A stretch of DNA of 64,000 nt, from positions 199,173-263,172 of IMG/VR virus record IMGVR_UViG_3300045988_160394. One strand, 5' to 3'. Origin of the DNA: a virus. Positions 1 to 46,878 of the stretch are shown here, one piece after another. Both the position numbers and the translations under genes were made by a program. The notes below the pieces were generated by a model, which saw only the letters and a program-made list of their open reading frames with translations, ran no database searches and was not told where the DNA came from. Within the stretch, counting starts at the first letter, position 1. Every line of letters begins with the position of its first letter.

Positions 1-2721
1 TTTAAATATACTATCTTTATTAAATGTCATTTCAAATGACACTCTCATACAATCATCTATAAATATTTCATTAGGTTTTAAAGGATTGTTTTTATCGTTC
101 TTACCTAATACTTCTTTTATGTTAGACCAGTCTTCATTATTTATAGATTCTAAATTTAACTTTAAGCTAAATTCCCATATAAGATGATATATATCATTAG
201 CATCTTTAGTTATTATTTCATTCATTGTTAAGTCTTTTAAATACTTAGGATTATTAAAGTCCCCTAATAAAGCATTTTGTAAAGGTAATATATAGTTCTT
301 AGTTACACTTGATAAAGCTTTGTCGTTTGTATCATAAATAAATATTCTAGACTTATCTGTATTACAAATATTCTCTTCTCTTGATCCATCTCCTACAAAT
401 AGAGGAGGATTCATCTTTATAAAATGCTTCTTCTTAACAGCATTACCTATTAAGTTTTCTATTGCTATATTAAACTTTTCATTCTTATAGTTCTCAACTG
501 AATCTAAAGCTAATGCTAATTCACTTAATGATTTAACGAATGTTTTAGCATCATCACTTAAATCTATTGAAGAAGTTGGTGTTAATAAGTTTTCATCTCT
601 ATCTTTTTTTATTTGAAGAGCATTCGCTAACCAGTTTTCATCTGGTATATAAAAACTTATTTCTCCTTTATTTACTTTAGGACCGCACTCATACCACCAT
701 GGACCAACAGTATTTTTATGAGTATAATATTGTAGATTATACTCATAGCTATTAAATTCCATAAGACTTAAGTTCGTTCCAGCTATTATAGATCTTTGAT
801 AGTAATATCTGAATATCTCCCAGTTAAAACTTTTTGCGAACATAGGAGGCATTTCTGCTAGTTTTTCATTATCTTCTTTACCTGTATCTTTATCTATAGG
901 TATATCTGGCATATAAACTTTATAGTTAAATTCTTTTAAAGTTAATATTACTTTTAATAGTCTAGGGAAACCTTCTACGTTTTGAATACTCATATTTGAT
1001 AAAGCAACAGCTTCTATTCCTAATACATCATTTATATAACCGTTCTCTATAGGCAAGAAAGGAGCTATTTTGAATTGGGCTATTAAACTTCTTAAGCCAT
1101 CCATTTTATATTCAAAAGATGTTCCATTAGGACTTGTATAAACATAGTCTATTCCATTTATACCAACGTCTTCGTAAAAGTATAATGTTAGTTCTAACAT
1201 TTGCTCATTATGTCCTTTATGTTTAGCTTGAGTACCTTTACTTCTCATATTAGGTATTCTTTCATAAGTACATTGAGTAATGTTTCTTATACTTTCTGGC
1301 GGTATAAGCATTAAAGTATCTCCTATGAATAATGCACAATTTCTAACTTTAGTAAAATCTATTCCTGTTAATTCTTTATGAAGTTTTAATCTATCTTCAT
1401 AAGATTTTTCTGATATCTTATTGAAACTATCTAACCATTCTATATTATTTCTATCATATGACCATAAATTAAATGAATCAGATATTCCTGAACCAATAGC
1501 TTGTAATTCTGGAGAGCTATTAAATTTAGGATTAGCTATAGTTGATTCTGTATTACATAAAACATATTTATTTAAGTTTATCCATTTACCTTCATATTTT
1601 ACATAAACAACTCCTAGAGATCTTTTATAGTTATCCATTCCATATGGTATATAATTATAATTTGTTATAGGAAGGTCTCCATAATACATATCCCATTCTT
1701 TAATCATAAAATCGACAGTATCTTTTAAATAATAAATGCTGTTAAAAGTTCTATCATCATTATCTGAATTAGTTTTACTTGCTTTAATTCCGTTTGCATT
1801 TAAAACTAGAACTATCTCTTCAGATTTTTCTAAAACTTTTCTAGCAGCTTCTTGAGCTTTATAAGCATCTTTAATAGTGTTAGAAGTAGATTCGTCTTTT
1901 TGCCCCATAACAATAAAGTACTTATATCCATCTTTTTTATTTATATATGGATTAGCACTCATTCTAGTTATTATTTCAGTGTATAAAGTTTTATCTCCAC
2001 TTTCTCCTACTTTTCATAAAGTTACTTTGTCGTCATTTTTTCTTTCTGTAACTTTACCACTTTTTCTATCGTAATTTAAGTTTTCATAAGTTATAAGAGT
2101 TTTACCATTAATCATCTCTTTCATTTTACCGAAGGTTGTTTCTGTTACTCTTTTATCATAGTCTTCTTCTCTGCATAGTTGTACTTCATAGTGAGGTATT
2201 TCCATAGAGTCTATACCTAATGCTCTGACTTGTATTGATTGTCCTCCACCCATCTTTTTAAAGAAGTCTCTAAAGTTATTGTACTTTACACTTTCAGAAC
2301 CATTAGTAAACATTATAGGTTGATTACCATCATTTATATCTTCTAATCTAAAAGACCATGTATCTCCGTCAAACTTATTTAAATCTCAAGTAGACCCATT
2401 TTTATCTATATCAGCTTTATTAGCTTTTAATACGAAAGCTCCTTCTTCTGAATAATGTCCTGGATTAGTAGAGAACGGTGCTTCTACATAAAAGTATGAA
2501 TCTAATATTTCTTTATCAGAATATTCACCATCTGTATTTTTATCTACGTATTGTTGATAAATTTCTGACATTAAATCTTCTTGCATCATTTCATCCATAT
2601 CAGGAGTTAAAAACTTTTTAGGATTTACAGTATTAAAGTCGCTTCTATTATTAGCCATACTAATATATTTTTCTTTATTCTCTTTTAGTTTTTTTAGTAT
2701 GTCTTTATTATCTTGACCCAT
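1..2721 (-). CDS. Large virion-associated protein, first 907 codons (continues beyond left edge); needs TGA=sense
   Basis: ATG 2719-2721 lies behind AAAGGAG. The frame stays open to position 1; I scanned every codon and found no TAA/TAG. The only breaks are in-frame TGA at 2386-2388 and 2014-2016. These join track ORFs 2386..2721 and 2014..2313 to an unlisted open frame 1..2013. Weak staphylococcal-nuclease-like motif QVRALGIDSMEIPH. Confidence 0.75.
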
Positions 2722-2769: not shown

Positions 2770-5700
2770 TTAAAAATTCCTATTTATATAATTCTCGATA
2801 TCTCTATCTGTTACTGGCTGATCTTTTTTATTTTTTATATTCATGTTTATATTAACAGCTCCACCTACTGTAGCTTCTGCTGCTTTTGCCATGATCTTCT
2901 CCATATACTTTCTACCTTTTTTAGTATCCGCCTTTATATTTATTATATAACCTTGTTGAGTATTCCCTGTCACATAACCGCTATCTTTTTCCATGAATTC
3001 AGGAATGCTCATAATTTGTTGTGATTTATTTTCTTTGCTAACTTCACTAGCTTGTTTATCATTTAAAGGATTACCAGAAGCATAGCCTCCAATCATTAAT
3101 CCAGCTGCTAAACCTAATACTGCTTTACCCATTCCTCCTACTCTTACATTTTTAACTCCATCAGCTAAAGATTCTGTCATACTTTCAGATAAACGTTTTA
3201 TTTCTGCGTCATATTGTCCAGAGTTCATTAGTTTGTTTTTTGCAATATTACTTTCTTGTTGAGCCATGCTTCTTTGAGCTATTTCATCTAAAGCATTTTG
3301 TAAGAAAGCAGGATCTCCATATCCCATTAAAGCTTGGTGTCTAGTTGCAAAAGTACTAGCTTCTTCAGCAGCTGCTCCAATAGAACCATTATACCAAAGT
3401 TTTTCAGTTCTTGCTCCATTTCTTCCAGTAGCTTCTATAGATGCTTTATAAGATAATGCTAGTTTGTCATGAGACATTTCTTTCATTCTTCCTAAGAATT
3501 TTTGTTTCATTGCATTAGCTCCACTTATCATAGGGTCAGCTTGTTTTTCTATATTAGCTCTTTCTTCTTTGCTTAATATAAGATGTCCCATATGTTCATA
3601 TGATTTCTTAAATATATCATCACCATAATCATCTAACCAACTGCCTAATTCATTTAATGATTCTGTAGATGCTACTGTTCCTTTATTATTAAAAATATCA
3701 TTCATTGCTTTTTTGAAGTTTTTAATTCTATTATCATCATATACTCCACCAGCTAATTTTTTAGAAGAGATTACTCCTTGTTCAGCTGTATCTAAAGCAT
3801 TCCAAACATAGTTATTAAAAGCTATTTCTTCAGGAGAAGTATTTCTAAATACATCAGCTAACTTAACAGCATTTAAAGCTTGGTTAACTGAACCTGTTGC
3901 AGCTAGTCCTGTTTTAGCCATCATTTCTTGTGCATACTTATCTACAGACATTCTTTTAATAGCTGTAGCTTCTAATTTACTAAACGTATCATCATCAACA
4001 TTACCTTTTATAACAGTTAAAGCTTCGTCTAGTATTTTGCCAGGCTCTGATGCTTTATTTAAATCTATATCAAATTTTTCATCTTTAGTTATGTCTTTAG
4101 CCAAACTTAATAAATTAGTTGTATCTTCACTTAGCTTATTAAACTCTTTTACAGTAGGCATATGAGCAACAGTTGTAAAAGTCTTTTTACCTAGAATAGA
4201 TTCTCCGCCTGGAACTAAAACCATGTTATCTGGATTAGATAAGTTTTGATTTTTTATAAAATCTTCTTTAATAGTTTTAGCTGCTTTATCTTGCCAATAT
4301 TTATTATCTGTAACAGCAACACTATACATAGCTCTTTCTTGTGCAGCAAAATAATCATATACTTCACCTGACATTAAATTGTTTTCTATTGCATAGTTTC
4401 TACCACCATTTTTATTAGCTAATTCATATAAAGCTCCATCTACTACTTTCCCATCTTTATCTCTATATTCAATTCTGAATGAAGATAAAGAGTCACCGTC
4501 TTGGTCGGCATTAGCTTTTAACATTGTAGATACAGATATCTTAGTTTGATTACCTTGTAATCTTTTATCTAAGAATACTCTAGTTTGGTTTATAGAATTA
4601 TTCCTTGTATTTGGATAACGGTCAGTTATATCAAAAGTACCATATTCTAATAAGAAATCATCCATTTCACTTTCTGTTTTAAATCCAAACTTCTTTAATG
4701 TTTCTGGTTTATAATATCCCATCTTTTCCATCTGTTCTTTTGATACGTATTTATAATCAAAATAAGCTTCACCATTAGCTTCTCATTCAGCTATTGTTTT
4801 ACCCATTATTTTAGATTTTTTAGTAAGATCATCTCCAACAGTTACATCTATACCTGCCTCTTTAGCTGCCTCTACTAACTCTTTAGTCGTAGTATCAGTT
4901 ATTAATCCAGATGATTTAAGTCTATAAGCAGTTGCATTTATTTCTATTTTACTAGCATTATGATGCATACCATTCTTACCAAATATAGAATCTCTTATAC
5001 CTTCTATAGCTTCTGTTCTATTTCCTAAAACTCTTTGGAATAGTCTTTCATATTCATCATCTTGTTTCCCAGATAAAGATTCTAATTCTTCTATACTATG
5101 TTTAAGCTTATTTAATTTTTGATGTCCTACATCTCTAACTTCCTCATCTGCTATTTTCATACCAGTACCAGGGACAGCTAGATATCTATTCTCCTGACCA
5201 AACTTTTCACCTAAATCTACAACTATGTTTCTTTCTACTAAATCATCAACTTTAAAGTTAACATCTTTGATATCAATAACTTCAAAGCCTTTTTGTTTCA
5301 TATCTTCTAAACTTAAGTTATATCCTCTATTAAAGCTATTAGCTTTCATAGCCATTTGTATTTTATATTCTTTTTCTGCACCTTCTACACCTAATTTAAT
5401 CTTATATTTTTTAGCGTATTCATGAATGTCTTTTAAATGAGCGTATCTTTCTGTTTTAACCATATTATCTGTTAGTAGTTCATCAGTGTATGGATTAAAG
5501 AATTGATCATCTTTAAATTGGTCTAATAAACCTTTTAATGATTTCTCTCCTATAATATCTTTAGAAAAAGTAACAGTACCATCAGCATTTTCTGTTAAAT
5601 GATCTTTGAAGGCATGTGAGCTTAACAATGTTTTAGTATCTAGTTCTCCATTATTAATCATTTTTTCAATTTGTTCTGCATGAGCTTCTGTCAAGGATAC

Positions 5701-8700
5701 CCTTTCTAATATAGATAATTCTTGGTCTCCAAACCTCATAGTTTTCATAGTGCCAGCTTTAGAATCTATATCTTCTAACATAGAATCTATTTTCATTATT
5801 TGTTGTTGAATAGCACTTTTCTCACTAGGGTCGGTAGACTTAATCATTTGCTTTTCTAGTCCTATTCTTTCTTTTTTTAATTCTTTTTTTGTTTTTAACA
5901 TTTCAAAGTATTCTGCTGTTACACCTGTTTGTGTTTCTGCATCTCTAACATATTTTACGTTCTCTCTAGTATTAGTACCTATAGCAACTTTAGCATCTTT
6001 TATAAACTTACCATCAACAGTTATATCTTTTTGTATAGTAGCATATGAACCAATAGCTTCTTTTTTGTATTCATATTTACCATCTTTATTCATAATATAA
6101 ATATCTTTAGCTACTAATCTATCATTTTCATCCATATCTTCTAATTCTTCATCTAAAGATTTTATTAATGCTGTAAACTTATCTTTATCTAATGATGTAG
6201 TTTTATTAACAGAATAAAATTTATCATCTATAAAGAATCTACCTTTCTTTTGTTTAACGCCTATAGATTCATAGCTTTTAGTGTCTTTATTTAAATCATA
6301 TTGTTCTATAAATTGAAATGCTTTATTAGAATTTATTTTATCTACAATAAAATCTACAGCATCTTTCTCTGAACCATATTTCTTACCTAAGCTGTTAATA
6401 GCTTTAGATAATAATCCTTCATACATTTGTCCTATATTACCGTGCTTAGCTACGGCATCATTAGCTAATAAATGAGTTTTATTTTTTAGTATCTTATCGA
6501 ATAATAATGCAGAATGCATATTTCTTTCTACAGTTATAGCTTTCTTTAAATCATCTAAAGATTCAAAACCTATTTTCTTAAGTGTACTTTCAGATAAATC
6601 TTTGTTTTTAAAGAATATAGCATCTACAGTTTCATTAGTAATTACTTTGTCTTTTACTATGTCCCAAGAATCTGTTTCTTTAAAAAATTGTTTTATCTTA
6701 TTGTTGTATGATCCAGTAGAAGCATAAACTATATCTGTCATACCTTTTTCTGCACCAGATGTCATTGTTTTAACATACCCCATAGCAGATATATCTTCTA
6801 TAGCATATTGTCCAGTAATACCTTCTTTAGATAGTATCTTCTCTAACTTAGCAGCCATTTCTGCTTGAGTAAGAGGTTGATTGTTTTTATCTAAAAATTT
6901 AGATAAGTTCTTTCTTATTATTTTATTTATATCTTCGTCTCTTAATTTAGTTCCATCACTTTCATAGAAGTTAAAATTGAAAACTCCATAATGCATTTTA
7001 GAAGCAAAGTCTACATTTCTTTCAGCAAAGCCTTTCCATTTAACAGCTGATTCACCTCTGCTTACTAATTTACCAGGAGAAGAATTGAATACTAATTCTC
7101 CATTTTTAAATTCAAAATTACCTCTATAGTTTAGTAATGCTTCTTGTTGTTTCTTTAAATCATTTCCTACTAATTCATTTAATAAAGCACTAACGTCATA
7201 ATTTTTACTAAGCTTCTGAGTACTAGCTGTTCTTAATCCATAAGCAGCTTCATGCACTCTTGAATCTATAATTCTCTCTTGCTCAAAAGTAGATATTGAA
7301 TTTCTTATATAGTTATAAGCTTTTTTCTCTATATCTTTTGTTTTTTCATCTACATTAGAATCTTTCATTACCTTAGCAAAGTTATTATCTATTAAAACTT
7401 GTAAAGCGTTGCTACTAACATATGTTGTATCCATCATTACATCCGTAGTTGTTTTACCTAATCCAAAATAATTTCTCATAGTTCTTTTATCCATAATATC
7501 AGAACTTAAAGTATTACCAGCAGTAATTCCTAGTTTGGATTTCTTTATATCATCTACTCTTAATTGTAGAGCATTACCAGACTGAGTTATAGGTGGTCTT
7601 TGAGAATTATCAAAGATAGAGAATGTAGAGTTTCCTGGTCTATATCCTCTTATTCCTATAAGTGCAGATGTTTTATTTTCTTGACCAGTAAAACCTAATT
7701 CTTTAGTTAAAAAAGCAAATTCATTAGATACGTTTTTGTCTTCTTTAATTTTATCTAATACAAAGTTAATATTCTTAATCAAATCTCTAGTCATTTCTGG
7801 ATTAATATCTTCTAATGCTTTCTCTTCTTTTACATAATATTTAAGATGTTGTTTCATATTATCTAAGAATTCTTTATCAGCAAAATCTATTCCATCTACT
7901 ATATGATTTAATTTTTGATTTTCTCCAAACAAATCTACTAATACATTTTTTATATCTGATATATCTACTCCATAGTTTGAATCTATATCGTTACCTCCAA
8001 AACCATTTATGGTAGATCTACTTCTTAATGAAGCATTATTTAAAGATACTAATCCTACTAATCTATCAAAACCTTCATCTTGGCCTTTCTTCTCTACTAC
8101 TCTTTGTACGTTATTACTTATACTATATCTATTAAGATTATCTAAAGATGAAGCAGAACCTCCTTTTACTTTTCTACCGTCAGCTTTGAAAGTTAACTTA
8201 TTATTTACTTGTATTTTCATAGAACCTAATTCTAAATACATAGTCTCAGAAGGATCATTGTATTTTATTTTAGGCATAATTAATTCCTCTGATCTACCAT
8301 TTTTAAATAATAATAAAGAACCATCTTCTTGTACAGATATAGATGCTCCAAGTTTATCGGCAGTATGAACTACATCTTTTACATAAGTATTTAAATCTTT
8401 ATATAAGTTGTCATACAATATCTGTTTAGTCCTATCACCTTTTTTTATTACATTTCTATTAGGTATATAATACTTTTCAACTAAACTTTTAGCATATCTT
8501 TCAGCAGATTTCTTAGTACCATCTAGAACATTTATATTTGTTCTTTCAACTATATTATTTGCTATTTGTTGAATTATTGGTTTCATATTTTCACTATTTA
8601 AGTATCTAACAAATTCAGTATTACCTTCTAATGCTTTCATAAATGTTCTGCTACCATTTAATATTCCATTTGTAACATTAGACTCTTTAGCTTCTCTCAT

Positions 8701-11610
8701 TCCTTCAATTATAGCTTCTGCTATTTGATACGGATGATAATCTTTATCTTTAAAGCTATTTTTTGAACTAAACTTAAATTGTTTCTTTATATTTTTAAAA
8801 GCCTTTGTATCTTTTAAAACCTCATCTTCTTGTAACATAGCAAATAGTTTTTCAACTGCATCTTTTTCGTAAATTAAATTACCTTTTTTATCTTTACCAT
8901 GAACAGCCTCTGTAGCTGTTTTTATTATTGAGTAAGGGCTATTAACATCATTAAGATTAATCTTTAATATGTTTGCTGTATCTAATGATTTAGCAGTATC
9001 TATATAATTAATTCTTTTTCCTCTAATTATCTTATCGTATTTTATTTCATATAGATTTTTAAAAGTATTAAAATCTGTTTGTAAATTAACGTCGCCTAAT
9101 TTAATCATATCGGCAATATCATCATTACCGCCTCTAAATTTGTTATTAAATATTCATTCAGCAGTCGTTCCTTTTACTTCTTTAACTGTTCTATTAAATA
9201 ATTCTTGTTTAACACTTTCAGCCGTTTTAGGATCTTTAAATACTTCAGTAGCTTCTAAAGCTTCTATTATATTTTTAAACATATTACCATAGCTATTAAC
9301 CATTTCTAATCCTGTAGCATTATTATCAACAGTTGATTGTAATAATCTCATTACATCATTTTTACTATGTCCTAAAGTAGCTATAATCATTTCTTGTGAT
9401 TTTATTAATTGAGCATTACTAAGTTCCATAGCCATTTGCCCTTTAGAAACTCTTTCTGCCATGATAAGAGATATATCTCTACCTGTAATATCCATGTTCA
9501 ATTCTTTAGATAAGTTTTCTTGTAGATCAAGTACATTCTTTATTTTCTTATAAGAATTATCTCTAAACATAGAGTTGTCTGCTCTAGAAATTAATTTCTT
9601 TTCATTATCAGCTAATACAACTCTATTAAATAACTCAGTATCAGAAAGACCTTCTTCATTAACTGGTTTAAAGACAACTTTATTAGTTTCTTTATTTTTG
9701 TTAATTTCTCTAATATCAAATCTGTCTTTCATTCCTTTTTTGATTTGAATTCCATTATCTGTTCTTTCTGCAACAATATCAAAGTTACCGCTTAAAAAAG
9801 CATTCATCTCTTTTTCTGATTTAAATATTAGATTTTGTGTTAAATCTCCTAGTCTTGTTGTAGTTGCGTAATCATCATGTACTGCCATGTTTAATTGAAC
9901 TTGATAAAGTTTTTTACCAGAATATTCAGGGGCTATATCTCCCATCATTGTTCTCAATTCATCTGTTAGTTCTATTTCTCTTATATTAGATATATCGTAA
10001 AAAGAACCTTTATTAATTCCGAAACCTGCACTAAAGTTTTCATGCATAGCTCCACCAGCTGCTTGTAAGGCTTCATCTCCTTTACCTAGTAAATGATTAT
10101 CAGCTGTATATATAGTTCCTGTACTTTTACTTTGTGCAAAGTTGAAATAATTTCTTCCACCATAACTAGTACTAACTCCTTTTTTAGCTTGAAGTATTTG
10201 CTTACCAGGAGTTAATACTGTATCTTCTGTTTTTATATTTTCTATTAAATTGTTTATGTGCTCTATAACAGATACATTCCCTGGAAGACTTTCTGATTTC
10301 TTTGTAAAAAACCATGATAATCCAGTAACGTCATCTTCAGCCATATGAGGTTTTAGTCCTTCACTATTAAACAAACCTCCATAATGTTTTTGTAATAAGT
10401 ATTCCTGTCCTCTTACTTTATCTATATCTCCTATTTTTGCATTTCCATATACAGAAGATAATGAATTATAATCTGTTGCTAATTTAACTCCACCTAAAAC
10501 ATCTAGATCTGCATAAGATGGAATATTAAAGCCAACTCTTTTACTTTCGAAATAATTATTTAATTTTCCATTATAATCGTTATTCCATTTTAATAACATA
10601 TTATTTAAAATAAGTTCGTCAAACGCATTACTGTTAAAACCAGAAATCATTGCTTTTTTATTATTAACAGCTGTTTGAGCTTTACTTATAGTTTGTGTAA
10701 CTTTTAATATATCTGCTTTTATTCCATCAATTTCTCCTGTTTGATGATAAACATTATTTAAAACTTCTGCTCCTTTTTCTATAACTGAAATATCTTTATA
10801 GTTATTTCTATCTACATTAGGGAAATTAGTTGCTTTAAAATATTTTTCTCCTTTAACTTTTTCATATTTAAAATCTTTATCTGCATATTTAGCTAAACGC
10901 ATAGCTGTTACTTTTAATTCTTCGTCACTATCTATAGTTCCATTTTCTATAGCCTTTCTTATTTTATTTACAGTTTCTTCTTTTTCTTTATCTGACATTC
11001 CTATAAGTACACTTACATTATCTATTACCTTACCTGTTTTAACGTCATATTCTTGCATAGCAAATTCTGTAATAGCATTAGGTCTTCATATATTATTTTT
11101 ATCTTTTCCTCCAAGAGTTTCTAAGTCCCAAACAAAAAGACTTCCTCCATTACTTTTTAGAGAGTTAAAATATTTATAAGATTCTTTTCATGAATTGATA
11201 GATTCATTAGCAGAACCTCTTTGTTTACTATGAACAACATTACCTAAATTCTTTATTGTTAATCCTAACATATTCTCTGATGAATTAGATTTATCACCTA
11301 TTATTTCAAAGAAGTTTAATCCTTTATCTCCGATGTTGGTTAATTGTCTAAGCTTTTCTGTTATTACATCTATATCGCCAGTAGCAACTTTTTTATTTCA
11401 TGTATACTTATGCTTATTAATAAACATATGGTCAGAATCTTTTATTAAATACTTACCACTATGTAATAATTCTATTGTTCTATTTATTTCTTCTATAGCC
11501 GCATTTTCTTTATTTATATCTACTTTTTTTGAAGCTTCAATGTTACGTTGAGCTATACGGATTCTATCCATAGTAGTTCCAACTATATTAGTTGATTTAT
11601 TATTAGCCAT
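2770..11610 (-). CDS. Giant 2946-aa protein: N-terminal DEDDh (DnaQ-like) exonuclease motifs plus RNA polymerase beta-like and beta-prime-like (NADxDGD) motifs; candidate virion-packaged RNA polymerase
   Basis: Track ORFs 11398..11610, 9154..11058, 4783..9108 and 2770..4731 lie in one frame. They are separated only by TGA at 11398, 11188, 11086, 9154 and 4783; the gaps were scanned and hold no TAA/TAG. ATG 11608-11610 lies behind GAGGTGG; TAA at 2770. Motifs: LFVWDLETLGG, NSNAFDELIL, KPHMAEDDV (Exo I-III, ca 10320-11130); AKHGNIGQMYE (ca 6430-6447); DRYPNTRNNSI...KANADQDGDS (NADQDGD = 4492-4512). Confidence 0.75.
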
Positions 11611-12037: not shown

Positions 12038-15000
12038 TTAAAATAACATTGAAACCAATCCTTGAATACCTGATTGGACACCGTATTCGCCTATTTTTTT
12101 AACATCACTAGCAGTTTGACTTATGTCTCCAACTATTCATAGTCCTGGTGCACTAGTAGGACTCATAGATATATTTTGTAAAGAAACTCCTAATCCAGAC
12201 ATTGCTGTTACCATATTAGAAGCATATTTGATACCACCTGTACCTTTATCAAATTTATGAATGTCTGGTGCATCTTGATATTGAGCTTTTCCTTTCTCTG
12301 ATTCGTAATATCCGAAATCAGATAATAACATACCTTCGTTCTGAATAGTTTTCATTTTAACATGTTTCAAATTAACGTTAGGTTTCCAACCTCTTCAGTT
12401 CATACCAGGTAGTTTATGCTTTTTGAAAAACTTCCTGTTACTATCTACTTTTTTTACTTTCTCTCTTCAAGCTATTTGTAGAGGTTTCCTTAAATATTCT
12501 GGTAAAGATTTAAGGATTTTTTTTCTTTCGTTCTTATCAGTTTCATTCATAAAGTTTATAAAATAATCTTTATATTGATCTGGTATTGACGCTAAGATTT
12601 CATCTTGTGTAGCTCCTTCTGATAATCCATAAATAGTAGATTCCATTGCTTTCTTGTAAGCAACTGCTGCCTTAGTATACTTACCACCTTTAAGCATGGT
12701 TTGTTGTGATTGTAAAGCCTGTATCTTATTGTTAATCTTCATCATTTGTTGATCATATTCATATCCACCAGCTGTATATTTATTACTCAACTTTTCGGCC
12801 TTTTTAATCAATTTAGCAACTTTTTCTTTATTTTTATCTATTTTTCTAAAAGCTTTCTTTATATTTACGCTTCCTTCGAAAACAAAAGCTCTTAAAGCAG
12901 CTTGATTATATAAGCCTTTATATTTCACATATTCTAATCTATCAAAATATTCATCTAGTTCAAATTTCTTTTCAACTTTCTTAGGTATTCATTTTCTTCT
13001 AAACATGTCTTTATCAAAATCAGGATTCTTAATAGCTGATACACCTAATCCAACTAAAGCACCTATAGCTGCACCTTTACCATGTCCTAATTCATCTAAT
13101 TTTAAATATCTAGATAATGTTTCTCCAGCAAAAGCAAATGATGCTGTTGCTTTCAATGGATTTTCAGCATTATTTCATCCTCATGCTAAAGACCCTAAAA
13201 CTGCTCCAACTTCTGCTCCTACTTCTATATTAGTTTTCTTTCTTATATTAGTAGTTCTAACTCCTAAGTTCCATAAAGCAGCAGTACCCATTCCAAGTAA
13301 AGCTGTAGGGTTAGTTGCAGCCATTAATGCTCCTGCTCCATATTTTAAATAAGATTCACTAGTTAGTTTCCCTATATTCATAAATAAAGCAGCGGAAGCT
13401 ACTGCACCTGCATGTTGTAACATAGACTGTCCTGATATTCTATTAAACGCAGGTTTTACGAATCCTTCAATAGGATGATCCCAAGTAGTTAATGAGTTAC
13501 CATAAATTTGTTCATTCATGAAAGATTCTCTAGCTGTTTCTATTTTTAAATACTTATTATGAAGGAATGGAATATTAGCATGACCAATAACTTCTTGAAT
13601 AGCTCCTAATGTTTCTTGCATAGCTGAAACATTTGCTAAATAACCTATGGCACTTGTATCTTCTTTATCTTTAGTTGCCATTCCTCTTTCTATTAATGTC
13701 TTGTTAATATTAGTTCCTAATCCATCTGTATCATATATAACAGCATTAGTAATTAATCCATCTTCTAATCTTTTTATAGCATTAGCTGATGTTCTATAGT
13801 TAATATGTTGACCTACATCTAATACATCATGGACATCAGCATCTTTATCTAAAACAATACCTCCAAGATTAAGTTTTTCTCCTGAAGCTAATTCTACAAT
13901 AGAACCATTGATGCTTTTAACTACACCTTTTTTCATTTTTACATTATTACGTATATATCTGTAATTAAAGAATTCATGGTTCCCTGACATTTTATTAGCC
14001 CTTTGTTGAATCTCTTTCATCTCTTCTATTAACTCAGGGTCTTTTACAGTATTTCTAGCAATGTTTCTCCATATCTTATATTCTTGTGATGATGGTGCTA
14101 TGTCTGCTAATATTTTAAATCTATCAAATGCACCATATTCACCAAACTCATCTGAATGAAGTTTATTAAGAGTTTCGTATCCTTTACCAGGTAATCTCAT
14201 TTCTCCTTTAGGTAATGAAGTAAATGGGTCCCCTGTTAAGAATCTTTCAGGTAATCATTCAGGCATATTATTTCTTAATGGATTATATCTAATAATAGAC
14301 TTATCTTCTGATGGAAAGAAACGTCTAGCTATCTCCATTAATTCTCCACCAAAACCACCTATTTGAGAATCTCAGAATCCTCTAGAGAAACTTGTCATTG
14401 CTCCTGCATCAGCATATCTCATTTTATAGCTATCTTCTCCAAAAGCAAAGTCTCCTAAGAATCCATATATACCAGATAGCTGTTTAGCAGAATATATTCC
14501 ATCTTGCATAAAATTAGTTACAAGACTTTTATTAACCAAACCAGGGTCATATATATCACTATAATATTCTGAATTTCTAACATTCATTTGATTAACAAGA
14601 TTAGTGTATACATAAGTACCTTTAGTCTTATCAGGTAATACACCTTTATTGTATGCTGGGTTAGATTCATAACCAGTTAAATAATTCGCTGCTTTTTTAA
14701 TATACTTATTTAATCCAGAAACTATTTGTCTAGCTATTACTCCTGTTTCTTGAGATTGGCTAGATATTGTTTGTACAATAGGGCTATTAGGATCTATTGC
14801 TTGTGTTTTATCGAATGCTGGATTAACATCTCCATTAGGAACATTTAAATGATTAAAAGATTCAACATCATTTTCTACAAAACCTACTCCAGGAGAAGAA
14901 ACTTCTCCATGAGAAATGTTTATATTCATATGGCCGTCTCCTGGATTACCATATGGAACATACTTAGCATTTCTTACATCAGTACCTTCAAAAATTAAAA

Positions 15001-18000
15001 CATCATCATTTTTATTTCCTCTAGCTTTAATTTTTTCGTTAATGTGTTTTAGTACCGTTCTTATATCTCTTCCATCACTACCTAATCTTTTCTTTACTTC
15101 AGGAAGCATTCTTACTGGTTTTATCATTTCTCCTAAAGTTGGATTAAGTATAGCTCCTCAAGGAGTACCTTCAGTAAATAGTTTTCCTGTTAAAGGATAA
15201 GGTCTATCATCCATATGTTTTTTCTCTAACCAATATGGATCTAAGAATGCTCTTATAGGACTTAGAGGATGTCTAATTGTTGGTATTCAACTATGTTTCC
15301 ATTTTTCATTTTCTGAACCATATATACTAACGTCTTTATAATTACTATGAGCTCTTCTTAAATAGTTAGGTTGATAGTATTGAACTGATCCTCCTCTAAA
15401 TTCATTAGCTGAACCAAAGCCCCAGAAACGTCCTCTTCTAACAACTGATACTCCATTTTCATATCATTCTTTTCTTTCATCAGCATCTTGAAATTCATTT
15501 GTTCCTGTCCAATACTCTCCTATTATAGATGATTCTTTAGCTCAGTTAATAGCTTGACCTATACCAGTAGCATAAGCTAATTTTCTTGCTGCTATATCTA
15601 CATTGGAAACTGCATTAGCTGCTGCTCCAGTAATAGAAACTCCAGTAAAGTTTTCTGATTCAAAATTAAGATAATCATATAGCTTATAAGCAGCCATTAC
15701 TGGCAATACTCTTTTAAGACCTATATTTTTAATTAATTCTAAAGTAGAACCTGTATTTTCTGATGATAGATTTAATCCTACTCCTTCTAATCCTCACATT
15801 AATCTTGCAACCATAAATTGAGGTATTTGAGTAAGGGATGTGTAGTTGCTTAAATCACCATTTCTACTAGCTAGTATTTCCTTACCTGCTTGGCCTGCTA
15901 ATTTAATAGCATCGTTTATTGATTTGATTTGTCCTAATCTTGATAAAGCAGATTCTCTATTAAAAGTATAGTTGTCATACTCATTTATATAAGTTTCATT
16001 TAAACTACCAAAAGTCTTATCATAAATATTAGTTCTAGATCCTAAATCGTCTATCATATTTATGTATTCTTGTTTAAACGTAGGACTAGTAGTTAATAAG
16101 TCATCTAGTTTTTTTAATGGAGAACCTTCTCCTATTAATTGATTAAGATGCAAATCCTGGTCAAAGTCATTATAGATTTCTAAGTTCTTTTGCATAATAG
16201 ACCAGTTAGCAAGATATCTTAAATTCTTTTGTTGTTCTAAAGTTAAGTTAGAGTTTTGTAGAACCTTTTCTAAATTAACTATTCCAGATTTAACTCCACC
16301 ATTAGATTCTCTTAACATAACTTCTTTAAGAGCTTCTCTTCTAATAACGTTTTCTGCATCTAATACATTAGTAGACGAAACAGAATATCCAAATATACTT
16401 TTACTATCTACTTGAGATATGTTTTGCATATTCATTAAATGGTCTATATTAGATAAACCTTTATTAAATATATTGTTTAAATCCTGATTAAAGAAATTAC
16501 TTTCTCCTGAATTATTTATTAAATGTAATAATTCTTCAGCATTTTCATACTCTTTATTATTTAAAATATTAAGTATTCTTAACGATTCTTTATCTGTTAT
16601 TGCTCCAGAATGTATCAATGAAGATATAGAAGAATCAGTCACTTGTTGAGAAGCAGTTATATCATTTAATATAGATGATAATTTTTTATTATCTTCTAAT
16701 ACCATATTTGCTATATTTGCAGAAGCTTCTAATAAACTTTCTTCTGAAAAATCCATTCCTTTTGCTTCAGCATAAACGTAAGATAGTTGATCTATTTTTT
16801 CTTCTGTACTTAAATCACTACCTATAAATCTTTTTACTCTTAATAGCTTGTCTTTAACTCTATCTTGGTCTTTCTTACTATTGCCAGTAAAAATGTCTTT
16901 TATTTTATTAAACATAGTATAGGAACCAGTTTGATCAATGTCTAATTTTTTAGCAAGCTCATTATCACTTGCTGTTAATATGTCTTTATTAGTACCTAAG
17001 AACTCTTTTGTTAATCTAGCCCCTTTACCATGCATATTATTATTTATAATACCATCTGCTATCTTATCTGAAAGAACTAAATTGCCTTGTTCATCTAAAA
17101 CAGTTTCAAACAACTTTGCTTTTTTAGTACTAGCGTTACCTATAGCTATTTTAGAAGTGAAAGCAGTTGTACTAGTATTTCCTTCTTCATAAGCTCCTAA
17201 TAATGAAGTATTTAAAGCTTTAAAGTTAACGAATATAGGATTACTCTTTTTTAATTTTATAGCATCTGTTAATCCAAATATTCTACCTAGAGTACTTACT
17301 GAAAAGTCATCTATAGCTTTATTAGCCATATCTCTTACTTCGGCCGTACTATATATTTCACCATTTCTATTTATTCTAATAGCTTTATCAAAGATAGTAT
17401 TGTCATCTAATTCAGGCATTTTATCAATAAAGTCTTTTAAATTCTTTTTGACTAATCTACCATTTTCATCTTTAGTTACATAATCAAACATTCTAGGATT
17501 ATAGTCTTTAGACTCAGTAAACTTTTTAAAGTCTCCAAGAGTCATTGCTTTATCTCCAGAAAATAATAGTTCACTATCTATTTCTAAACCTAAAACATTC
17601 TTTGCGAATTTATCTACTTTACCAAAGATAGTATCACTTGTTTTCTTATTATCTAATAAGCTATTTCTTAATTCTTTATCTACTTGTTCTCTTATCTTTC
17701 TAGTCTTAGAAAAGTTATTTCTTACTTTTTCAGATATATCTTTTTTAGAATTATATATATATTCTAAGAATTCTTGTTTCTCTTCATTAGAGAAATTCAT
17801 CTTATTGAAATGCTTATCTAAGAAATTAGAAAAAGCTATCTTATTATCTTTAGATACTACTGCATTTTCATTTATTTTTTCATAAGCCTCTAAAGCAGTA
17901 TTTTTAATCGTAACTGGATTTCTTTCGATGTTTTCTTTTTTTGTATATTTAGCAATAAGCTTAAATACTTCTTGTTTCTTTAATTCAGTTTCATAGTTAG

Positions 18001-19668: not shown

Positions 19669-20733
19669 TTAAGATTTGCTTATATACATAGTACAACTTT
19701 TATTAACTTTAAATACTGTATCTATTTCTGTTCTATATAAGCTGAATTCTAGAGAACAATTTATACCTTTTCCAGAATTAATTTTAGAATTTAGTTTTTC
19801 TATGTCACTTTTATCAGTTATTCTGCATACTCATCCTTGATCACAATAAGTTAGCGTATATGTTTTAGATAAGTTTATTTTACTATCAGAAATAGTTAAT
19901 TTAATATTATTAATCTTATCTCCGCTTTTCTTATTTATTATTTCAGGAAATGCTACAGAAATTAAACAATTATCTTTGTCTAATTTTCTTAATGCAATAT
20001 TAGTAACGATAGCTAAATAATTTTGATTACCTAACGCTTTACTCTTTGCAGTATCAACATCACTTTTATTTTTCTCTTCTACAACAACATAATCATATTT
20101 ATTATTTGCTGATTTTAAATTAGGATTAGGAGTTGGAGTATTATCTTTAACATTGCCATCTTCTTCAGTCTTTTTATAAGATAAGTTTCTTGCTATAAAA
20201 CTATATACTTCTGCTATAGGTTCTCCACTAGTGTCAAGAACTTGTTGATACCCTGTTATATAAACTCCTTCTATAACTTGGAATGTTGCATTATATGATG
20301 TTTCATTACTTACGTTATATCCACCATATCCTATCACTATATCAAAACACTTTCTAAATAAAGCTGCATTTAATGGATCACATGAAACTCCAACTTTGTC
20401 ATAAGGATTCGCTATAGATGATTCTGGTATACGTTCTAATAAATTAGCTATATAACCTACTTCTGTAAAGTTAATTATAAAAGTACCTTCTACTAATTTC
20501 TGTCCAATAATTATTCTAGATGGAAGAAAGCTATTAAAACCATATATGGGTTTTTTCTGTTCAGTATAAGTAAAATCAATTCTAGCTATATCTATTATTC
20601 TTTCTCCACCAATAAACATTTCTGCATCTATTGAAGAGAAATACCTTTTATGTGTTCCAGCATATTTAGTTGTACTAGTAATTAAGTCTCTATCACTAGC
20701 TTGTACTCCATACGTAAAATAAGGCTTAGCCAT
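19669..20733 (-). CDS. Tail-tube-fold paralog 3 (354 aa with TGA 19831 decoded)
   Basis: Track ORF 19831..20733 ends in TGA; the frame continues 53 codons to TAA 19669. FSSIDAEMFIGGERIIDIARIDFTYTEQKKPIYGFNSF...GQKLVEGTFIINF...FDIVIGYGGYN...YSFIARNL parallels the tube protein 23375..24040. Confidence 0.6.
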
Positions 20734-23288: not shown

Positions 23289-23335
23289 TATATATCCTCC
23301 TTTTTTATTTTAGATATAGCTTTAATATATGTTTA

Positions 23336-23368
23336 CAAAAAAAAGAGGAAGTACTGAGACTTCCTCTT
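23336..23368 (-). terminator. Rho-independent terminator after tube gene 1
   Basis: Minus-strand RNA: AAGAGGAAGU-CUCAGU-ACUUCCUCUU (10-bp perfect stem) followed by a run of 8 U. Confidence 0.75.
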
Positions 23369-23374
23369 AAAAAA

Positions 23375-24040
23375 CTACCAAGTAGTACTTATGAAACCTT
23401 TGTTATTATCATCAATAGGCTTCATTGAATCTACTGATCTACAAACGAAAGTATAAGCTTTTTCAGATGTAGGAGCATCAATAGAGAAACCTGTTCCTTC
23501 ATTCAATAACTCTACTCCATATAAAACAGTAGAAGCTTTATTACCATATTCATTAGCAAAAGTGATTGTAATATCGAATGGTAATAGTTCATCAGCGTAT
23601 CTTGGTTTAACATTTTCTGCAACTAGGTCAGAAGGAGTTTTACCTGTAACACCAGCTCCAGTATTAGTACCAGAAGATAGACTAGTCATGTGCTTATCCC
23701 ATTCTTCAACTGAAGTAAATTGTAAAGCACCATTATCATCTGAAGTTTTGAATACATTTGCATGGTATTTACTGATTCCTGGACCATCTGATAATTCAAC
23801 CATTAATGCGTCTCTATTGAAAGTAATGAATACTAAGTTACCAGCTATACCTCTTTTACCTCTTGAGAAAGATCTAGGCTCTGCACTACCCATAGTGTAA
23901 ACAGGAACCTTTTCTCTAGTAATTGAGTATGTTATGGCCTGTAACTCACCAATTGTTTTACCATTGAATGTAGCAACAATATCGCTACCTCCAAAAGTAG
24001 TATAAGTCTTCTTATATTGTTCTGTGGACATGTTAGCCAT
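23375..24040 (-). CDS. Tail tube protein (221 aa)
   Basis: Lies directly downstream of the sheath gene. Intact ORF, TAG stop, no TGA, strong RBS AAGGAGGAA. Bracketed by hairpins, consistent with high expression. Confidence 0.7.
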   Translation of the reverse strand: MANMSTEQYKKTYTTFGGSDIVATFNGKTIGELQAITYSITREKVPVYTMGSAEPRSFSRGKRGIAGNLVFITFNRDALMVELSDGPGISKYHANVFKTSDDNGALQFTSVEEWDKHMTSLSSGTNTGAGVTGKTPSDLVAENVKPRYADELLPFDITITFANEYGNKASTVLYGVELLNEGTGFSIDAPTSEKAYTFVCRSVDSMKPIDDNNKGFISTTW

Positions 24041-46300: not shown

Positions 46301-46517
46301 AAAACTTTCATCATATATATTTTTATATATTTTTCTACACCAATTTACAAATTTTTCCTATATAGAGCAAAATTTTTATAATTTTTCGAAGCAGTACCTA
46401 GTTATTGATAATAGATAAAAAGCTAAGAATTTTAGCCCCAGGTCTATTAAGTTAAACAAAATAAAAATAAACGAAAGGGTCTAATGATAAAAGATTGATT
46501 AGACAGAGGTGAATAAA

Positions 46518-46856
46518 ATGGAAAACTTAAAAGAAGTAAAAGCAACAAGAGTAAACGGAAGATTAATGGCTTCAGGTAAAGTAAAGTCATTAAATGAAAA
46601 GAGAAGAGAACAAGGAGTGAATATTATGAAACAAGAACAAGTAGTAGAAGTAAAAGAAGAAAGAATAGATACATCTATGTTTGATAAATTAAGTGCTAAT
46701 AAAGCAGCTTATAATAAGCACTTAGAGGATCTAGCTTATGACAAATGGTTAGATGAACAATTCGATCAAGAAGACAAGGAAAAGAAGCTATCATATAAGA
46801 TATCAAAGTTGTTTAAAATGATGGCTAGAGACTTGCAAGGAAAGAAAATAAAATAA
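46518..46856 (+). CDS. Hypothetical early protein (112 aa)
   Basis: ATG 46518 lies 7 nt after GAGGTG (the track starts at GTG 46509). TAA stop. Confidence 0.6.
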   Translation: MENLKEVKATRVNGRLMASGKVKSLNEKRREQGVNIMKQEQVVEVKEERIDTSMFDKLSANKAAYNKHLEDLAYDKWLDEQFDQEDKEKKLSYKISKLFKMMARDLQGKKIK

Positions 46857-46878
46857 ATAAACAGTAGGAGGTAAAGTG

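What the first reader, a model, noticed from the sequence alone, without database searches (positions are those of the whole stretch)
2770..11610. 2946-aa single polypeptide combining DEDDh exonuclease motifs with RNA-polymerase beta- and beta-prime-like motifs
With TGA decoded, four track ORFs fuse into one 8.8-kb gene located after the tape-measure-like gene.

The N-terminal 400 aa carry the three DnaQ-type exonuclease motifs in the correct order: D-x-E in FVWDLETLGG, NAFDELIL, and H-x-A-x-D-D in HMAEDDV.

About 1500 aa further on, AKHGNIGQMYE resembles the RpoB block GRHGNKG/SRMNIGQ. About 660 aa after that, DRYPNTRNNSI...(28 aa)...KANADQDGD mirrors the RpoC active-site segment RQPSLHRMSI...YNADFDGD. 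The beta-to-beta-prime spacing is similar to that in cellular enzymes.

Giant virion-packaged two-barrel RNAPs are known in crAss-like phages, and split multisubunit RNAPs are known in phiKZ-like phages. A fused beta/beta-prime-like enzyme with an N-terminal proofreading-type exonuclease in a sheathed phage is not something I recognise.
Basis: partly seen in the sequence, partly recalled or inferred. Interest (0 to 1): 0.85.

Follow-up and report, generated by a model that had tools for sequence, protein, structure and literature searches.

The report
Tail-locus giant exonuclease–RNA polymerase fusion
A 2,946-residue late-gene protein of a TGA-recoded jumbo contractile-tailed phage, encoded where relatives have their "tape-measure" gene, joins an intact DnaQ-type 3'-5' exonuclease to the catalytic core of a cellular-type (two-barrel) RNA polymerase; it most likely belongs to an unannotated family of injected transcription enzymes that also occurs in cultured Bacillus and Acinetobacter jumbo phages.

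Summary
Window 2770-11610 (minus strand) is one 2,946-codon gene interrupted only by five in-frame TGA codons that encode Trp. Full-length homologues of 2.6-3.3 kaa exist.

**Exonuclease.** The N-terminal DEDDh exonuclease is supported by catalytic residues conserved in all 66 alignable family representatives, a confident AlphaFold model whose Foldseek hits are Orn/REXO2/TREX1/ERI/ExoI, and a PDB profile hit.

**Beta-prime-type active site.** RYP...DQDGD is present in 85 of 85 full-length representatives. The predicted fold hits only RNAP beta-prime chains in the PDB. A family profile hits phiKZ RNAP gp55 at its NADFDGD barrel.

**Beta-like barrel.** This remains inferred.

**Context.** The gene is flanked by orthologues of 0305phi8-36 ORF145 and the baseplate hub. 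It is therefore the positional counterpart of that phage's "tape measure protein". It shares that protein's C-terminal domain, and it shares exonuclease and RNAP blocks with the "virion structural proteins" of Bacillus phages WH1 and KLEB27-3.

**Best reading.** It is a tail-borne, ejected virion RNA polymerase with a fused active exonuclease. This is a new variant of a known kind, and I found no description of it in the literature searched.

The parts
2770..11610 (-). Whole gene: 2,946-aa protein, five in-frame TGA = Trp, TAA stop
10261..11193 (-). DEDDh (DnaQ-like) 3'-5' exonuclease domain, residues ~140-450. Catalytic residues D162, E164, (N326) D331, H422, D427. A large helical insertion lies between motifs I and II.
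   Evidence: Residues invariant. AF2 model pLDDT 80, pTM 0.78. Foldseek top hits REXO2/Orn/TREX1/ERI/ExoI. PDB profile hit 9mrd_A, E 0.002, with all three motifs colinear.
6331..7098 (-). Candidate beta-type (second) barrel region, residues 1505-1760.
   Evidence: Conservation. Motif-level resemblance to E. coli beta K1065/K1073 and SRMNIGQ. No PDB profile hit. Low pLDDT around both motifs. Inferred only.
4411..4668 (-). Beta-prime-type catalytic double-psi barrel, residues 2315-2400. R2331-Y-P2333 ... D2369-Q-D2371-G-D2373 form the Mg2+-binding triad.
   Evidence: 85/85 full-length representatives keep R, P, D, D, D. Family profile hits phiKZ RNAP gp55 at HRNP...NADFDGD, E 0.0023. Foldseek top 50 PDB hits are all RNAP beta-prime. 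Meets the published filter [RK]xPx{20,100}DxDxD.
3751..3948 (-). Bridge-helix-like segment (EMMAKTGLAATGSVNQALNAVKLADVF, residues 2559-2588) and conserved AEQGVISSKK (residues 2609-2618)
   Evidence: K2566, G2573, N2576, E2610, S2615 and K2617 are conserved. A long helix is predicted in the model. ISSKK is also present in WH1 and KLEB27-3. Pairwise similarity to the E. coli bridge helix is not significant.
3073..3138 (-). Gly/Ala-rich hydrophobic (glycine-zipper-like) segment, residues 2825-2846
   Evidence: Read from the sequence. Equivalent segments precede the C-terminal domain in WH1 gp095, KLEB27-3 gp034, 0305phi8-36 gp146 and ME3_36.
2773..2958 (-). Small conserved C-terminal domain (residues ~2885-2946), shared with the tape-measure-locus proteins of Bacillus jumbo phages
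   Evidence: hhalign of the family C-termini against WH1 + KLEB27-3 + 0305phi8-36 gp146: E 9.8e-6, probability 82%
12038..17800 (-). Upstream neighbour, 1,920 aa (13 TGA): homologue of WH1 gp096 / 0305phi8-36 ORF145 virion structural protein
   Evidence: BLASTP E 8e-54 to WH1 gp096 and 4e-15 to ME3_35. ORF145 was identified in virions by mass spectrometry, per the record.
1..2721 (-). Downstream neighbour (runs off the window): homologue of the baseplate-hub giant protein (WH1 gp094, KLEB27-3 gp035)
   Evidence: BLASTP E 1.5e-31 and 1.5e-28

Best explanation
The gene encodes one giant late protein of a TGA-recoded, 0305phi8-36/ME3-like jumbo myovirus. It sits at the tape-measure locus, after the tail chaperonins and the ORF145 homologue and before the baseplate hub.

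**Parts.**
- An active-looking DEDDh 3'-5' exonuclease (residues ~140-450).
- About 1,000 residues of unknown function.
- A two-barrel-type RNA polymerase catalytic module (~1500-2700), with the Mg2+-binding RYP...DQDGD barrel, a candidate lysine pair K1614/K1622 and a bridge-helix-like helix.
- A hydrophobic glycine-zipper segment.
- A small C-terminal domain shared with the relatives' tape-measure protein.

**Most likely mechanism.**
1. It is built into the tail through its tape-measure-like C-terminus.
2. It is expelled into the cell with the leading DNA end when the sheath contracts.
3. It then acts as a virion RNA polymerase that transcribes the divergently oriented, TGA-free early genes (46-64 kb, plus strand) without host RNA polymerase.
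4. The fused exonuclease works on nucleic-acid 3' ends at the same site: host DNA or RNA degradation, trimming of the entering DNA end to expose template, or removal of RNA 3' ends.

**Shown.** The ORF, TGA = Trp, domain folds and motifs, family-wide conservation, synteny.

**Inferred.** Virion location, ejection, the second barrel, polymerase and nuclease activities, and the role of the exonuclease.
For: **Gene and recoding.** ORF and recoding.

**Exonuclease.**
- D/E/D/H/D is conserved in all 66 HMM-detectable full-length representatives (clusters at 50% identity) and in most of the 19 others.
- AF2 model: pLDDT 80.
- Foldseek hits are DEDDh enzymes only, with probabilities up to 0.94.
- PDB profile hit E 0.002 with the three motifs in order.

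**Polymerase.**
- R2331, P2333, D2369, D2371 and D2373 are present in 85/85 representatives.
- The AF2 model (pLDDT 71) hits only RNAP beta-prime chains among the top 50 PDB matches, best E 4e-4.
- In BFVD it hits viral RNAP large subunits, LEF-9 and a protein chunk of a crAss-like phage (uncultured phage cr272_1).
- A family profile hits phiKZ RNAP gp55 exactly at RxP...NADFDGD, E 0.0023.
- Pfam RNA_pol_Rpb1_2 is a sub-threshold hit on the WH1 homologue.
- K1614/K1622, spaced like Rpb2 K979/K987, and H1723 are invariant (invariant list of two-barrel RNAPs from PMC2919709).

**Virion and tail context.**
- Flanking genes and the whole structural module are homologous to WH1, KLEB27-3, 0305phi8-36 and ME3.
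- The same slot holds WH1 gp095 'virion structural protein', KLEB27-3 gp034 'structural protein' and 0305phi8-36 gp146 'hypothetical tape measure protein; identified as virion protein by mass spectrometry'.
- hhalign links the family to WH1/KLEB27-3 in three colinear blocks: exonuclease E 1e-4, catalytic barrel E 3e-5, C-terminal domain E 1e-5.

**Precedents.** The tape-measure-fused virion RNAP of P23-45 (PMC10770324). The HD-nuclease-fused virion RNAP subunits of AR9/PBS1 (PMC7598289).

**Early genes.** They contain no TGA at all, so they are translatable before any recoding is established.
Against: - No Pfam, PHROG or PDB sequence hit for the protein itself.
- The RNAP assignment rests on one barrel, moderate Foldseek E-values with low TM-scores, and a marginal profile hit.
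- The second barrel is not demonstrated.
- The structures were predicted for a 72%-identical homologue, not the window protein.
- No direct proteomic evidence exists for this phage. The 0305phi8-36 protein that was detected in virions lacks both enzyme motif sets and shares only the C-terminus.
- No repeated promoter-like motif was found upstream of the early genes.
- A globular ~3,000-aa protein must be unfolded or flat to pass through a tail tube.
Confidence: 0.65

Rival explanations
1. It is essentially a tape-measure or tail-lumen structural protein. Its enzyme-derived domains no longer polymerise RNA. They might serve as DNA-end binding or pilot modules, or as membrane-channel formers.
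For: It occupies the locus annotated as tape measure in 0305phi8-36 and shares that protein's C-terminal domain and hydrophobic segment. The 0305phi8-36 protein works without either enzyme motif set. Much of the protein is helical.
Against: All five Mg-site/RxP residues (85/85) and all DEDDh catalytic residues (66/66) are kept in representatives that differ by more than 50%. That pattern is what is expected for active enzymes, not relics.
Confidence: 0.12
2. It is a phage RNA polymerase that is not injected. It is made late and used inside the cell, for example for late transcription or a second round, with the tail-gene neighbourhood being incidental.
For: The gene is expressed with late genes and needs TGA decoding. 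No proteomics exists for this phage.
Against: A polymerase encoded among late genes cannot start the late programme. Synteny places it strictly between tail chaperonins/ORF145 and the hub in four divergent phage groups. Its C-terminal domain is shared with a mass-spectrometry-verified virion protein. A separate early ORF with an invariant KxP...DTDYDG motif is a better candidate for an intracellular enzyme.
Confidence: 0.1
3. It is a two-barrel DNA polymerase or primase with a fused DnaQ-type proofreading exonuclease. That would make it a functional analogue of archaeal PolD (two-barrel DP2 plus exonuclease DP1).
For: DEDDh exonucleases are the classic proofreaders of DNA polymerases. PolD shows that the two-barrel core can make DNA (abstracts of PMC7708050 and PMC6355029). 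No recognisable DNA polymerase was seen in the 64-kb window.
Against: Top 50 PDB fold hits are RNAP beta-prime, with no PolD DP2. The profile hit is to a phage RNAP. The gene lies in the tail module, not among replication genes. The nearest exonuclease folds are oligoribonuclease, REXO2 and ERI. The window is only about a quarter of a ~260-kb genome, so a replication module may lie elsewhere.
Confidence: 0.07
4. The motifs are chance matches in a long low-complexity protein and the TGA codons are real stops, so there are several separate genes.
For: AT-rich, Lys/Asn-rich sequence. No curated-family hits.
Against: Homologues read through as single proteins. TGA and TGG interchange reciprocally at aligned Trp positions. 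The motifs are invariant across 85 representatives. Independent fold evidence supports both domains.
Confidence: 0.01

Closest known systems
Tape-measure-fused virion RNA polymerase gp96 of Thermus phage P23-45 (Chaban et al. 2024, PMC10770324)
   Same: Single-polypeptide two-barrel RNAP physically joined to the tail tape-measure locus. Presumed to be ejected through the tail to transcribe the first genes. That phage also has a second, early-expressed small RNAP; a candidate exists here at 47327-49663.
   Different: P23-45 is a siphovirus. Its RNAP is the N-terminal 1,200 residues of a 5,002-aa tape measure. Here the polymerase module is in the C-terminal third of a myovirus protein, preceded by a DEDDh exonuclease that gp96 lacks. 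No gp96 structure appeared among the top PDB fold or profile hits.
crAss-like phage virion RNAP (phi14:2 gp66, PDB 6VR4)
   Same: Giant (~2,200 aa) virion-packaged single-chain two-barrel RNAP with a DxDxD site. A protein chunk of a crAss-like phage (uncultured phage cr272_1) is a weak BFVD fold hit (E 7e-3).
   Different: crAss-like phages are podoviruses and, to my knowledge, carry the enzyme as capsid cargo. There is no exonuclease. hhalign of the family against gp66 finds nothing. The gene context is different.
Multisubunit virion RNAPs of phiKZ/AR9-type jumbo phages
   Same: Virion-delivered two-barrel RNAPs of jumbo myoviruses. The family profile hits the phiKZ non-virion gp55 catalytic barrel. 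AR9, PBS1 and BpSp virion RNAPs carry a fused nuclease-type (HD) domain of unknown role (PMC7598289).
   Different: Those enzymes are split into 4-5 polypeptides, are clearly beta/beta-prime-derived and are not encoded at the tape-measure locus. Their fused domain is an HD phosphohydrolase, not DEDDh.
Tape-measure-locus giant proteins of 0305phi8-36-like phages (0305phi8-36 gp146; WH1 gp095; KLEB27-3 gp034; ME3 gp36)
   Same: Same genomic slot, with flanking orthologues. The C-terminal domain is shared. WH1 and KLEB27-3 also have DEDDh and RYP...DHDGD blocks. ME3 gp36 has REP...DHDQD and is a fold hit.
   Different: They are annotated only as tape measure, virion structural or hypothetical proteins. 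BLAST-level similarity to the window protein is absent. 0305phi8-36 gp146 lacks both enzyme motif sets. No DEDDh motif set was noted in ME3 gp36, which at 1,603 aa has no room for the ~450-aa N-terminal domain.
DEDDh exonucleases (oligoribonuclease/REXO2, TREX1, ERI1/3, ExoI, DnaQ epsilon)
   Same: All three motifs (DxE, NxxxD, Hx4D) and the fold.
   Different: About 310 residues instead of about 180, with a ~90-residue helical insertion between motifs I and II. Fused to a polymerase of the two-barrel class, whereas known polymerase-linked DEDD domains belong to palm-type DNA polymerases.
Archaeal PolD (DP2 two-barrel core plus DP1 exonuclease)
   Same: The only known two-barrel polymerase that works with a dedicated 3'-5' exonuclease.
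   Different: PolD's exonuclease is a separate Mre11-like phosphodiesterase subunit and the enzyme makes DNA. No fold or sequence hit to DP2 was seen here.

Membership tests
Two-barrel (double-psi beta-barrel) RNA polymerase superfamily | Beta-prime/Rpb1-type barrel with invariant R-x-P followed by the D-x-D-x-D Mg2+ triad (Rpb1 R446, P448, D481/483/485; PMC2919709) | tested here: met
   R2331, P2333, D2369, D2371 and D2373 are present in 85/85 full-length representatives. Profile alignment to phiKZ gp55 HRNP...NADFDGD, E 0.0023. Meets the published filter.
Two-barrel (double-psi beta-barrel) RNA polymerase superfamily | Overall fold of the catalytic region resembles RNAP large subunits | tested here: met
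   AF2 model of a 72%-identical homologue (pLDDT 71). Top 50 PDB Foldseek hits are all RNAP beta-prime (E 4e-4 to 1e-2, probability up to 0.85). TM-scores are low because of the multi-domain model. BFVD hits include NCLDV RNAP subunits, LEF-9 and a protein chunk of a crAss-like phage.
Two-barrel (double-psi beta-barrel) RNA polymerase superfamily | Second (beta/Rpb2-type) barrel supplying two invariant lysines (Rpb2 K979, K987) | tested here: inconclusive
   K1614 and K1622 are invariant and eight residues apart, as in Rpb2 and E. coli beta. However, model confidence there is below 50, there is no PDB profile hit, and hhalign to E. coli beta is not significant.
Two-barrel (double-psi beta-barrel) RNA polymerase superfamily | Invariant acidic residue of the beta subunit (Rpb2 D837) | tested here: inconclusive
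   Candidates are E1443 and D1449 in the conserved STFEQERIxDSR block. The alignment to NFEDS of E. coli beta is not significant.
Two-barrel (double-psi beta-barrel) RNA polymerase superfamily | Bridge helix and trigger-loop elements after the catalytic barrel | tested here: inconclusive
   A long conserved helix (residues 2559-2588) and a conserved EQxVISSKK block are present. Pairwise similarity to the E. coli bridge helix is at chance level (67/500 shuffles).
Two-barrel (double-psi beta-barrel) RNA polymerase superfamily | Template-dependent RNA synthesis | not testable with these tools
   Needs biochemistry.
DEDDh (DnaQ-like) 3'-5' exonucleases | Motifs I (DxE), II (NxxxD) and III (Hx4D) in order | tested here: met
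   D162/E164, N326/D331 and H422/D427 are invariant in 66/66 HMM-detectable representatives. The same motifs are present in WH1 and KLEB27-3.
DEDDh (DnaQ-like) 3'-5' exonucleases | RNase H-like DnaQ fold | tested here: met
   AF2 pLDDT 80, pTM 0.78. Foldseek hits: REXO2, Orn, TREX1, ERI3, ERI1, ExoI, CRN-4; probability 0.85-0.94, target TM 0.42-0.53, E 0.01-0.1. PDB profile hit 9mrd_A, E 0.002.
crAss-like virion RNAP (gp66 family) | Detectable sequence homology to gp66 and crAss-type gene context | tested here: not met
   hhalign against gp66 found no hit. The phage has a sheath and 0305phi8-36-like structural genes.
Tail tape measure protein (locus and anchoring module) | Encoded after the tail chaperonins and before the baseplate hub; C-terminal module shared with the relatives' tape measure | tested here: met
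   Synteny. C-terminal domain hhalign E 1e-5, including 0305phi8-36 gp146.
Tail tape measure protein (locus and anchoring module) | Acts as the length ruler (extended helical protein whose length scales with the tail) | not testable with these tools
   No virion images are available. The neighbouring 1,920-aa ORF145 homologue is an alternative ruler.
PolD-type two-barrel DNA polymerase | Fold or sequence similarity to DP2 | tested here: not met
   No DP2 chain among the top 50 PDB fold hits or in the profile hits.

The most novel reading that the evidence does not exclude
The exonuclease acts on the polymerase's own product or template. This would be the first two-barrel polymerase with a covalently attached DnaQ-type 3'-5' exonuclease. 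It could be a self-proofreading or backtrack-resolving RNA polymerase that needs no Gre/TFIIS-like factor. It could instead be a PolD-like two-barrel DNA polymerase or primase delivered by a phage tail. On either reading, tape-measure genes in a whole lineage of jumbo myoviruses are carriers of injected nucleic-acid enzymes.
Probability: 0.15. Interest if true: 0.9.

Novelty: new variant of a known kind. Interest (0 to 1): 0.72.

Why it matters
Virion-delivered two-barrel RNA polymerases are known from crAss-like podoviruses, phiKZ-like jumbo phages and one siphovirus (P23-45).

This finding adds a large, sequence-isolated family: about 85 full-length clusters at 50% identity in public data.
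- It sits at the tape-measure locus of contractile-tailed jumbo phages.
- It carries an intact DnaQ-type exonuclease, a combination not described for this polymerase class.

It suggests how 0305phi8-36/ME3-like and TGA-recoded jumbo phages could start transcription independently of the host.

It also fits the observed code partition. Early genes are TGA-free and readable at once. Late genes, including this enzyme for the next round, are recoded.

It implies that 'tape measure' or 'virion structural protein' annotations in cultured phages (WH1 gp095, KLEB27-3 gp034, ME3 gp36) hide enzymes. Those phages make the hypothesis directly testable.

Tried and rejected
**Searches with the protein itself that returned nothing.**
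- Pfam and PHROGs on the whole protein.
- phmmer and a full-length family profile against PDB sequences.
- megablast and tblastn against GenBank phages.

**Profile comparisons.**
- hhalign of the core alignment against single sequences of E. coli beta, E. coli beta-prime and phi14:2 gp66: nothing.
- Profile of the candidate second-barrel region against the PDB: nothing.
- Relaxed hhalign to E. coli beta: expected register, but E 0.08-0.17.
- Pairwise shuffle tests. NIGQ block: 2/500 shuffles reach the score. DxDGD block: 1/500. K-x7-K, bridge-helix and FEDS blocks: at chance.

**Structure prediction.** Substrings of homologue P0001 (72% identity) were used instead.

**Neighbouring genes.** Pfam on the upstream 1,920-aa and downstream proteins: nothing useful.

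**Candidate early small RNAP (47327-49663).** No PHROG, Pfam or PDB support despite an invariant KxP...DTDYDG motif.

**Other negative searches.** No tRNA genes in the window, so no suppressor tRNA was seen. No over-represented 7-12-mers upstream of early genes relative to shuffles.

**Rejected idea.** I considered a crAss-like phage and rejected it, because of the sheath, tube and hub genes and the 0305phi8-36-like synteny.

Full report
**1. Observation**

The feature lies on the minus strand. Translating 11610 to 2770 gives a Met-initiated frame of 2,946 codons ending in TAA. It is interrupted only by five TGA codons.

Decoding TGA lengthens ORFs throughout the minus-strand block (1-46 kb). 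Every plus-strand ORF from 46 to 64 kb has no TGA at all, neither as sense codon nor as stop.

A search of 5.8 billion proteins returned homologues of 2,085-3,397 aa. Eight of them are 2,907-2,988 aa and cover 100% of the query.

At codon level, window TGA at residues 141, 175 and 2276 aligns with TGG in a homologous contig. A TGA of that contig aligns with a window TGG. So TGA encodes Trp.

Small corrections: there are five TGAs, and the spacings differ slightly from those quoted.

**2. What kind of phage**

PHROG hits identify the following:
- a tail sheath (24114-27044)
- tube paralogues
- a major capsid protein
- a portal
- an intein-containing large terminase

BLASTP shows that the whole late module is homologous to that of Acinetobacter phage ME3 and Bacillus phages WH1 and KLEB27-3, which belong to the 0305phi8-36 lineage (ORF145 link). 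The matches cover TerL, portal, capsid, sheath, tube and the two-gene tail chaperonin.

The 1,920-aa upstream gene matches WH1 gp096 (= 0305phi8-36 ORF145) at E 8e-54. The downstream gene that runs off the window matches the baseplate-hub giant protein at E 1e-31.

The linked early ORF occurs on contigs of 254-266 kb, so this is a jumbo phage. One homologous contig sits in an assembly labelled Paraclostridium dentum.

**3. The exonuclease**

Alignment of residues 100-520 across the family shows invariant D-x-E, N-x4-D and H-x4-D.

Across 85 full-length representatives (clusters at 50% identity) from an exhaustive HMMER search of 1.84 billion proteins, all 66 with an HMM-detectable domain keep all five catalytic residues. 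Most of the remaining 19 keep them too.

A profile of the domain hits a 195-aa DEDDh-type exonuclease in the PDB (9mrd_A, E 0.002) with the three motifs in order.

The AlphaFold model (pLDDT 80, pTM 0.78) retrieves REXO2, oligoribonuclease, TREX1, ERI1/3, ExoI and CRN-4. Probabilities reach 0.94 and target TM-scores are 0.42-0.53.

**4. The polymerase module**

*Conservation.* R2331-x-P2333 and D2369-x-D2371-G-D2373 are present in 85/85 representatives. They satisfy the filter [RK]xPx{20,100}DxDxD that Chaban et al. used for two-barrel RNAPs.

*Fold.* A 1,200-residue model was built for the homologue P0001, equivalent to window residues 1500-2697 (pLDDT 71).
- Its 50 best PDB matches are exclusively bacterial or plastid RNAP beta-prime chains. 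The best E is 4e-4. TM-scores are low, as expected for a flexible multi-domain model.
- In BFVD the best matches are two uncharacterised phage proteins, one of them from Acinetobacter phage ME3.
- These are followed by a protein chunk of a crAss-like phage (uncultured phage cr272_1), NCLDV RNAP large subunits, LEF-9 and pox/ASFV RPB1 homologues.

*Sequence profile.* A deeper profile of the catalytic region hits phiKZ RNAP gp55 at HRNP...NADFDGD (E 0.0023). Pfam RNA_pol_Rpb1_2 is a sub-threshold hit on the WH1 homologue.

The beta-prime-type barrel is therefore supported by conservation, fold and, marginally, by sequence profile.

**5. The beta-like half**

It is followed by a helix, as SRMNIGQ is in beta. 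The best local alignments to E. coli beta fall in that register. One is nominally unusual (2/500 shuffles) but the segment was chosen post hoc. hhalign is not significant.

I noted a stronger candidate for the two universal lysines. K1614 and K1622 are invariant and eight residues apart, like Rpb2 K979/K987 and E. coli beta K1065/K1073.

Three results leave the question open:
- The model has pLDDT below 50 around both motifs.
- A profile of residues 1505-1760 finds nothing in the PDB.
- hhalign to beta fails.

The second barrel is inferred, not shown.

**6. Relatives in cultured phages and the tape-measure locus**

The same slot, between the ORF145 homologue and the hub, holds four proteins in cultured phages:
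- WH1 gp095 (2,515 aa, 'virion structural protein')
- KLEB27-3 gp034 (2,434 aa, 'structural protein')
- ME3 gp36 (1,603 aa, hypothetical)
- 0305phi8-36 gp146 (2,537 aa, 'hypothetical tape measure protein; identified as virion protein by mass spectrometry')

WH1 and KLEB27-3 carry DEDDh motifs, RYP...DHDGD and ISSKK, all conserved between them at 31% identity. ME3 gp36 carries REP...DHDQD.

hhalign links the window's family to WH1/KLEB27-3 in three colinear blocks:
- exonuclease, E 1e-4
- catalytic barrel, E 3e-5
- C-terminal domain, E 1e-5

0305phi8-36 gp146 has neither enzyme motif set and shares only the C-terminal ~150 residues. This matches Hardies et al., who could align only the last 60 residues of gp146 with its prophage counterparts (PMC2147016).

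So the enzyme-bearing giant protein and a conventional tape measure are alternatives at one locus, joined by a common C-terminal anchoring module.

**7. Literature**

- Chaban et al. 2024 describe a tape-measure-fused virion RNAP in siphovirus P23-45, together with an early small RNAP.
- Drobysheva et al. describe the crAss virion RNAP.
- Sokolova et al. note HD-nuclease domains fused to virion RNAP subunits of AR9/PBS1.
- Iyer et al. 2021 list only a YonO-like RNAP for 0305phi8-36. They state that, apart from their group 1 phages and two group 3 phages, no jumbo phages encode RNAPs. ME3 is not among the named exceptions.

No paper found describes this family as a polymerase or exonuclease. 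The library is incomplete, so prior description cannot be excluded.

**8. Mechanism**

Best-supported reading: a tail-assembled, ejected protein whose polymerase transcribes the TGA-free early genes, with a fused active exonuclease acting on 3' ends.

- Shown: gene structure, domain identity, conservation, synteny.
- Inferred: virion residence (by positional orthology and the shared C-terminal domain), ejection, RNA synthesis, and the role of the exonuclease.

Rival readings are listed with their tests: an inactive structural relic, a non-injected RNAP, and a PolD-like DNA polymerase.

**9. Verdict**

The finding is real and largely correctly interpreted. It is a new variant of a known kind (virion two-barrel RNAPs), with an unprecedented exonuclease fusion and tail-locus context in myoviruses. 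It is testable in cultured relatives.

Noticed in passing
window 1-46300 (minus strand) versus 46500-64000 (plus strand): TGA recoding is partitioned. Late or structural genes on the minus strand carry up to 13 in-frame TGA each. The 22 plus-strand ORFs contain no TGA at all, neither as sense codon nor as stop. GC and AT skew flip at about 46 kb. No tRNA genes (hence no suppressor tRNA) are present in the window.
   Followed up: partly
window 47327-49663 (+): A 778-aa early ORF has a K627-Y-P629 ... D696-T-D698-Y-D700-G motif that is invariant in 17 aligned homologues, drawn from 91 homologues of mostly ~745 aa. It fits the two-barrel RNAP filter, so it may be a small non-virion RNAP, as in P23-45 or like YonO/0305phi8-36 gp99.
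   Followed up: partly
window 39228-42197 (-): The large terminase is 989 aa with nine TGA codons. It carries an insertion (about residues 34-477) that matches intein-bearing helicase and primase PHROGs, so it probably contains an intein or homing-endonuclease insertion.
   Followed up: no
window 19669-24040 (-): Three consecutive tail-tube paralogues (221, 851 and 354 aa) share an N-terminal tube domain. The PHROG they hit (phrog_9206) is labelled 'major head protein', apparently inherited from the mislabelled 0305phi8-36 gp140/141 records, whose notes say 'tail tube'.
   Followed up: partly
L007 (Bacillus phage 0305phi8-36) 20368-27981; L005 7007-14554; L006 8800-16104; L004 33172-37983: At one conserved locus, related jumbo phages encode different proteins. 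0305phi8-36 gp146 is motif-free and tape-measure-like. WH1 gp095 and KLEB27-3 gp034 are exonuclease + RNAP-motif giants. ME3 gp36 is shorter and has the RNAP motif only. All share a hydrophobic segment, and all except ME3 gp36 share a detectable C-terminal domain. This points to domain replacement inside tape-measure genes.
   Followed up: partly
window 12038-17800 (-): The 1,920-aa ORF145 homologue has several Gly/Ala-rich hydrophobic stretches near residues 1470-1600 (weak Gly-zipper Pfam hit) and no other recognisable domain. Whether it or the giant protein is the true length ruler is open.
   Followed up: no
L008 (NCBI GCA_051651445.1, contig JBOFSH010000242.1): A homologous phage contig of 117 kb is deposited within an assembly labelled Paraclostridium dentum. 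Its genes are fragmented by standard-code calling. This is a possible host hint (Peptostreptococcaceae) or a contaminant.
   Followed up: no
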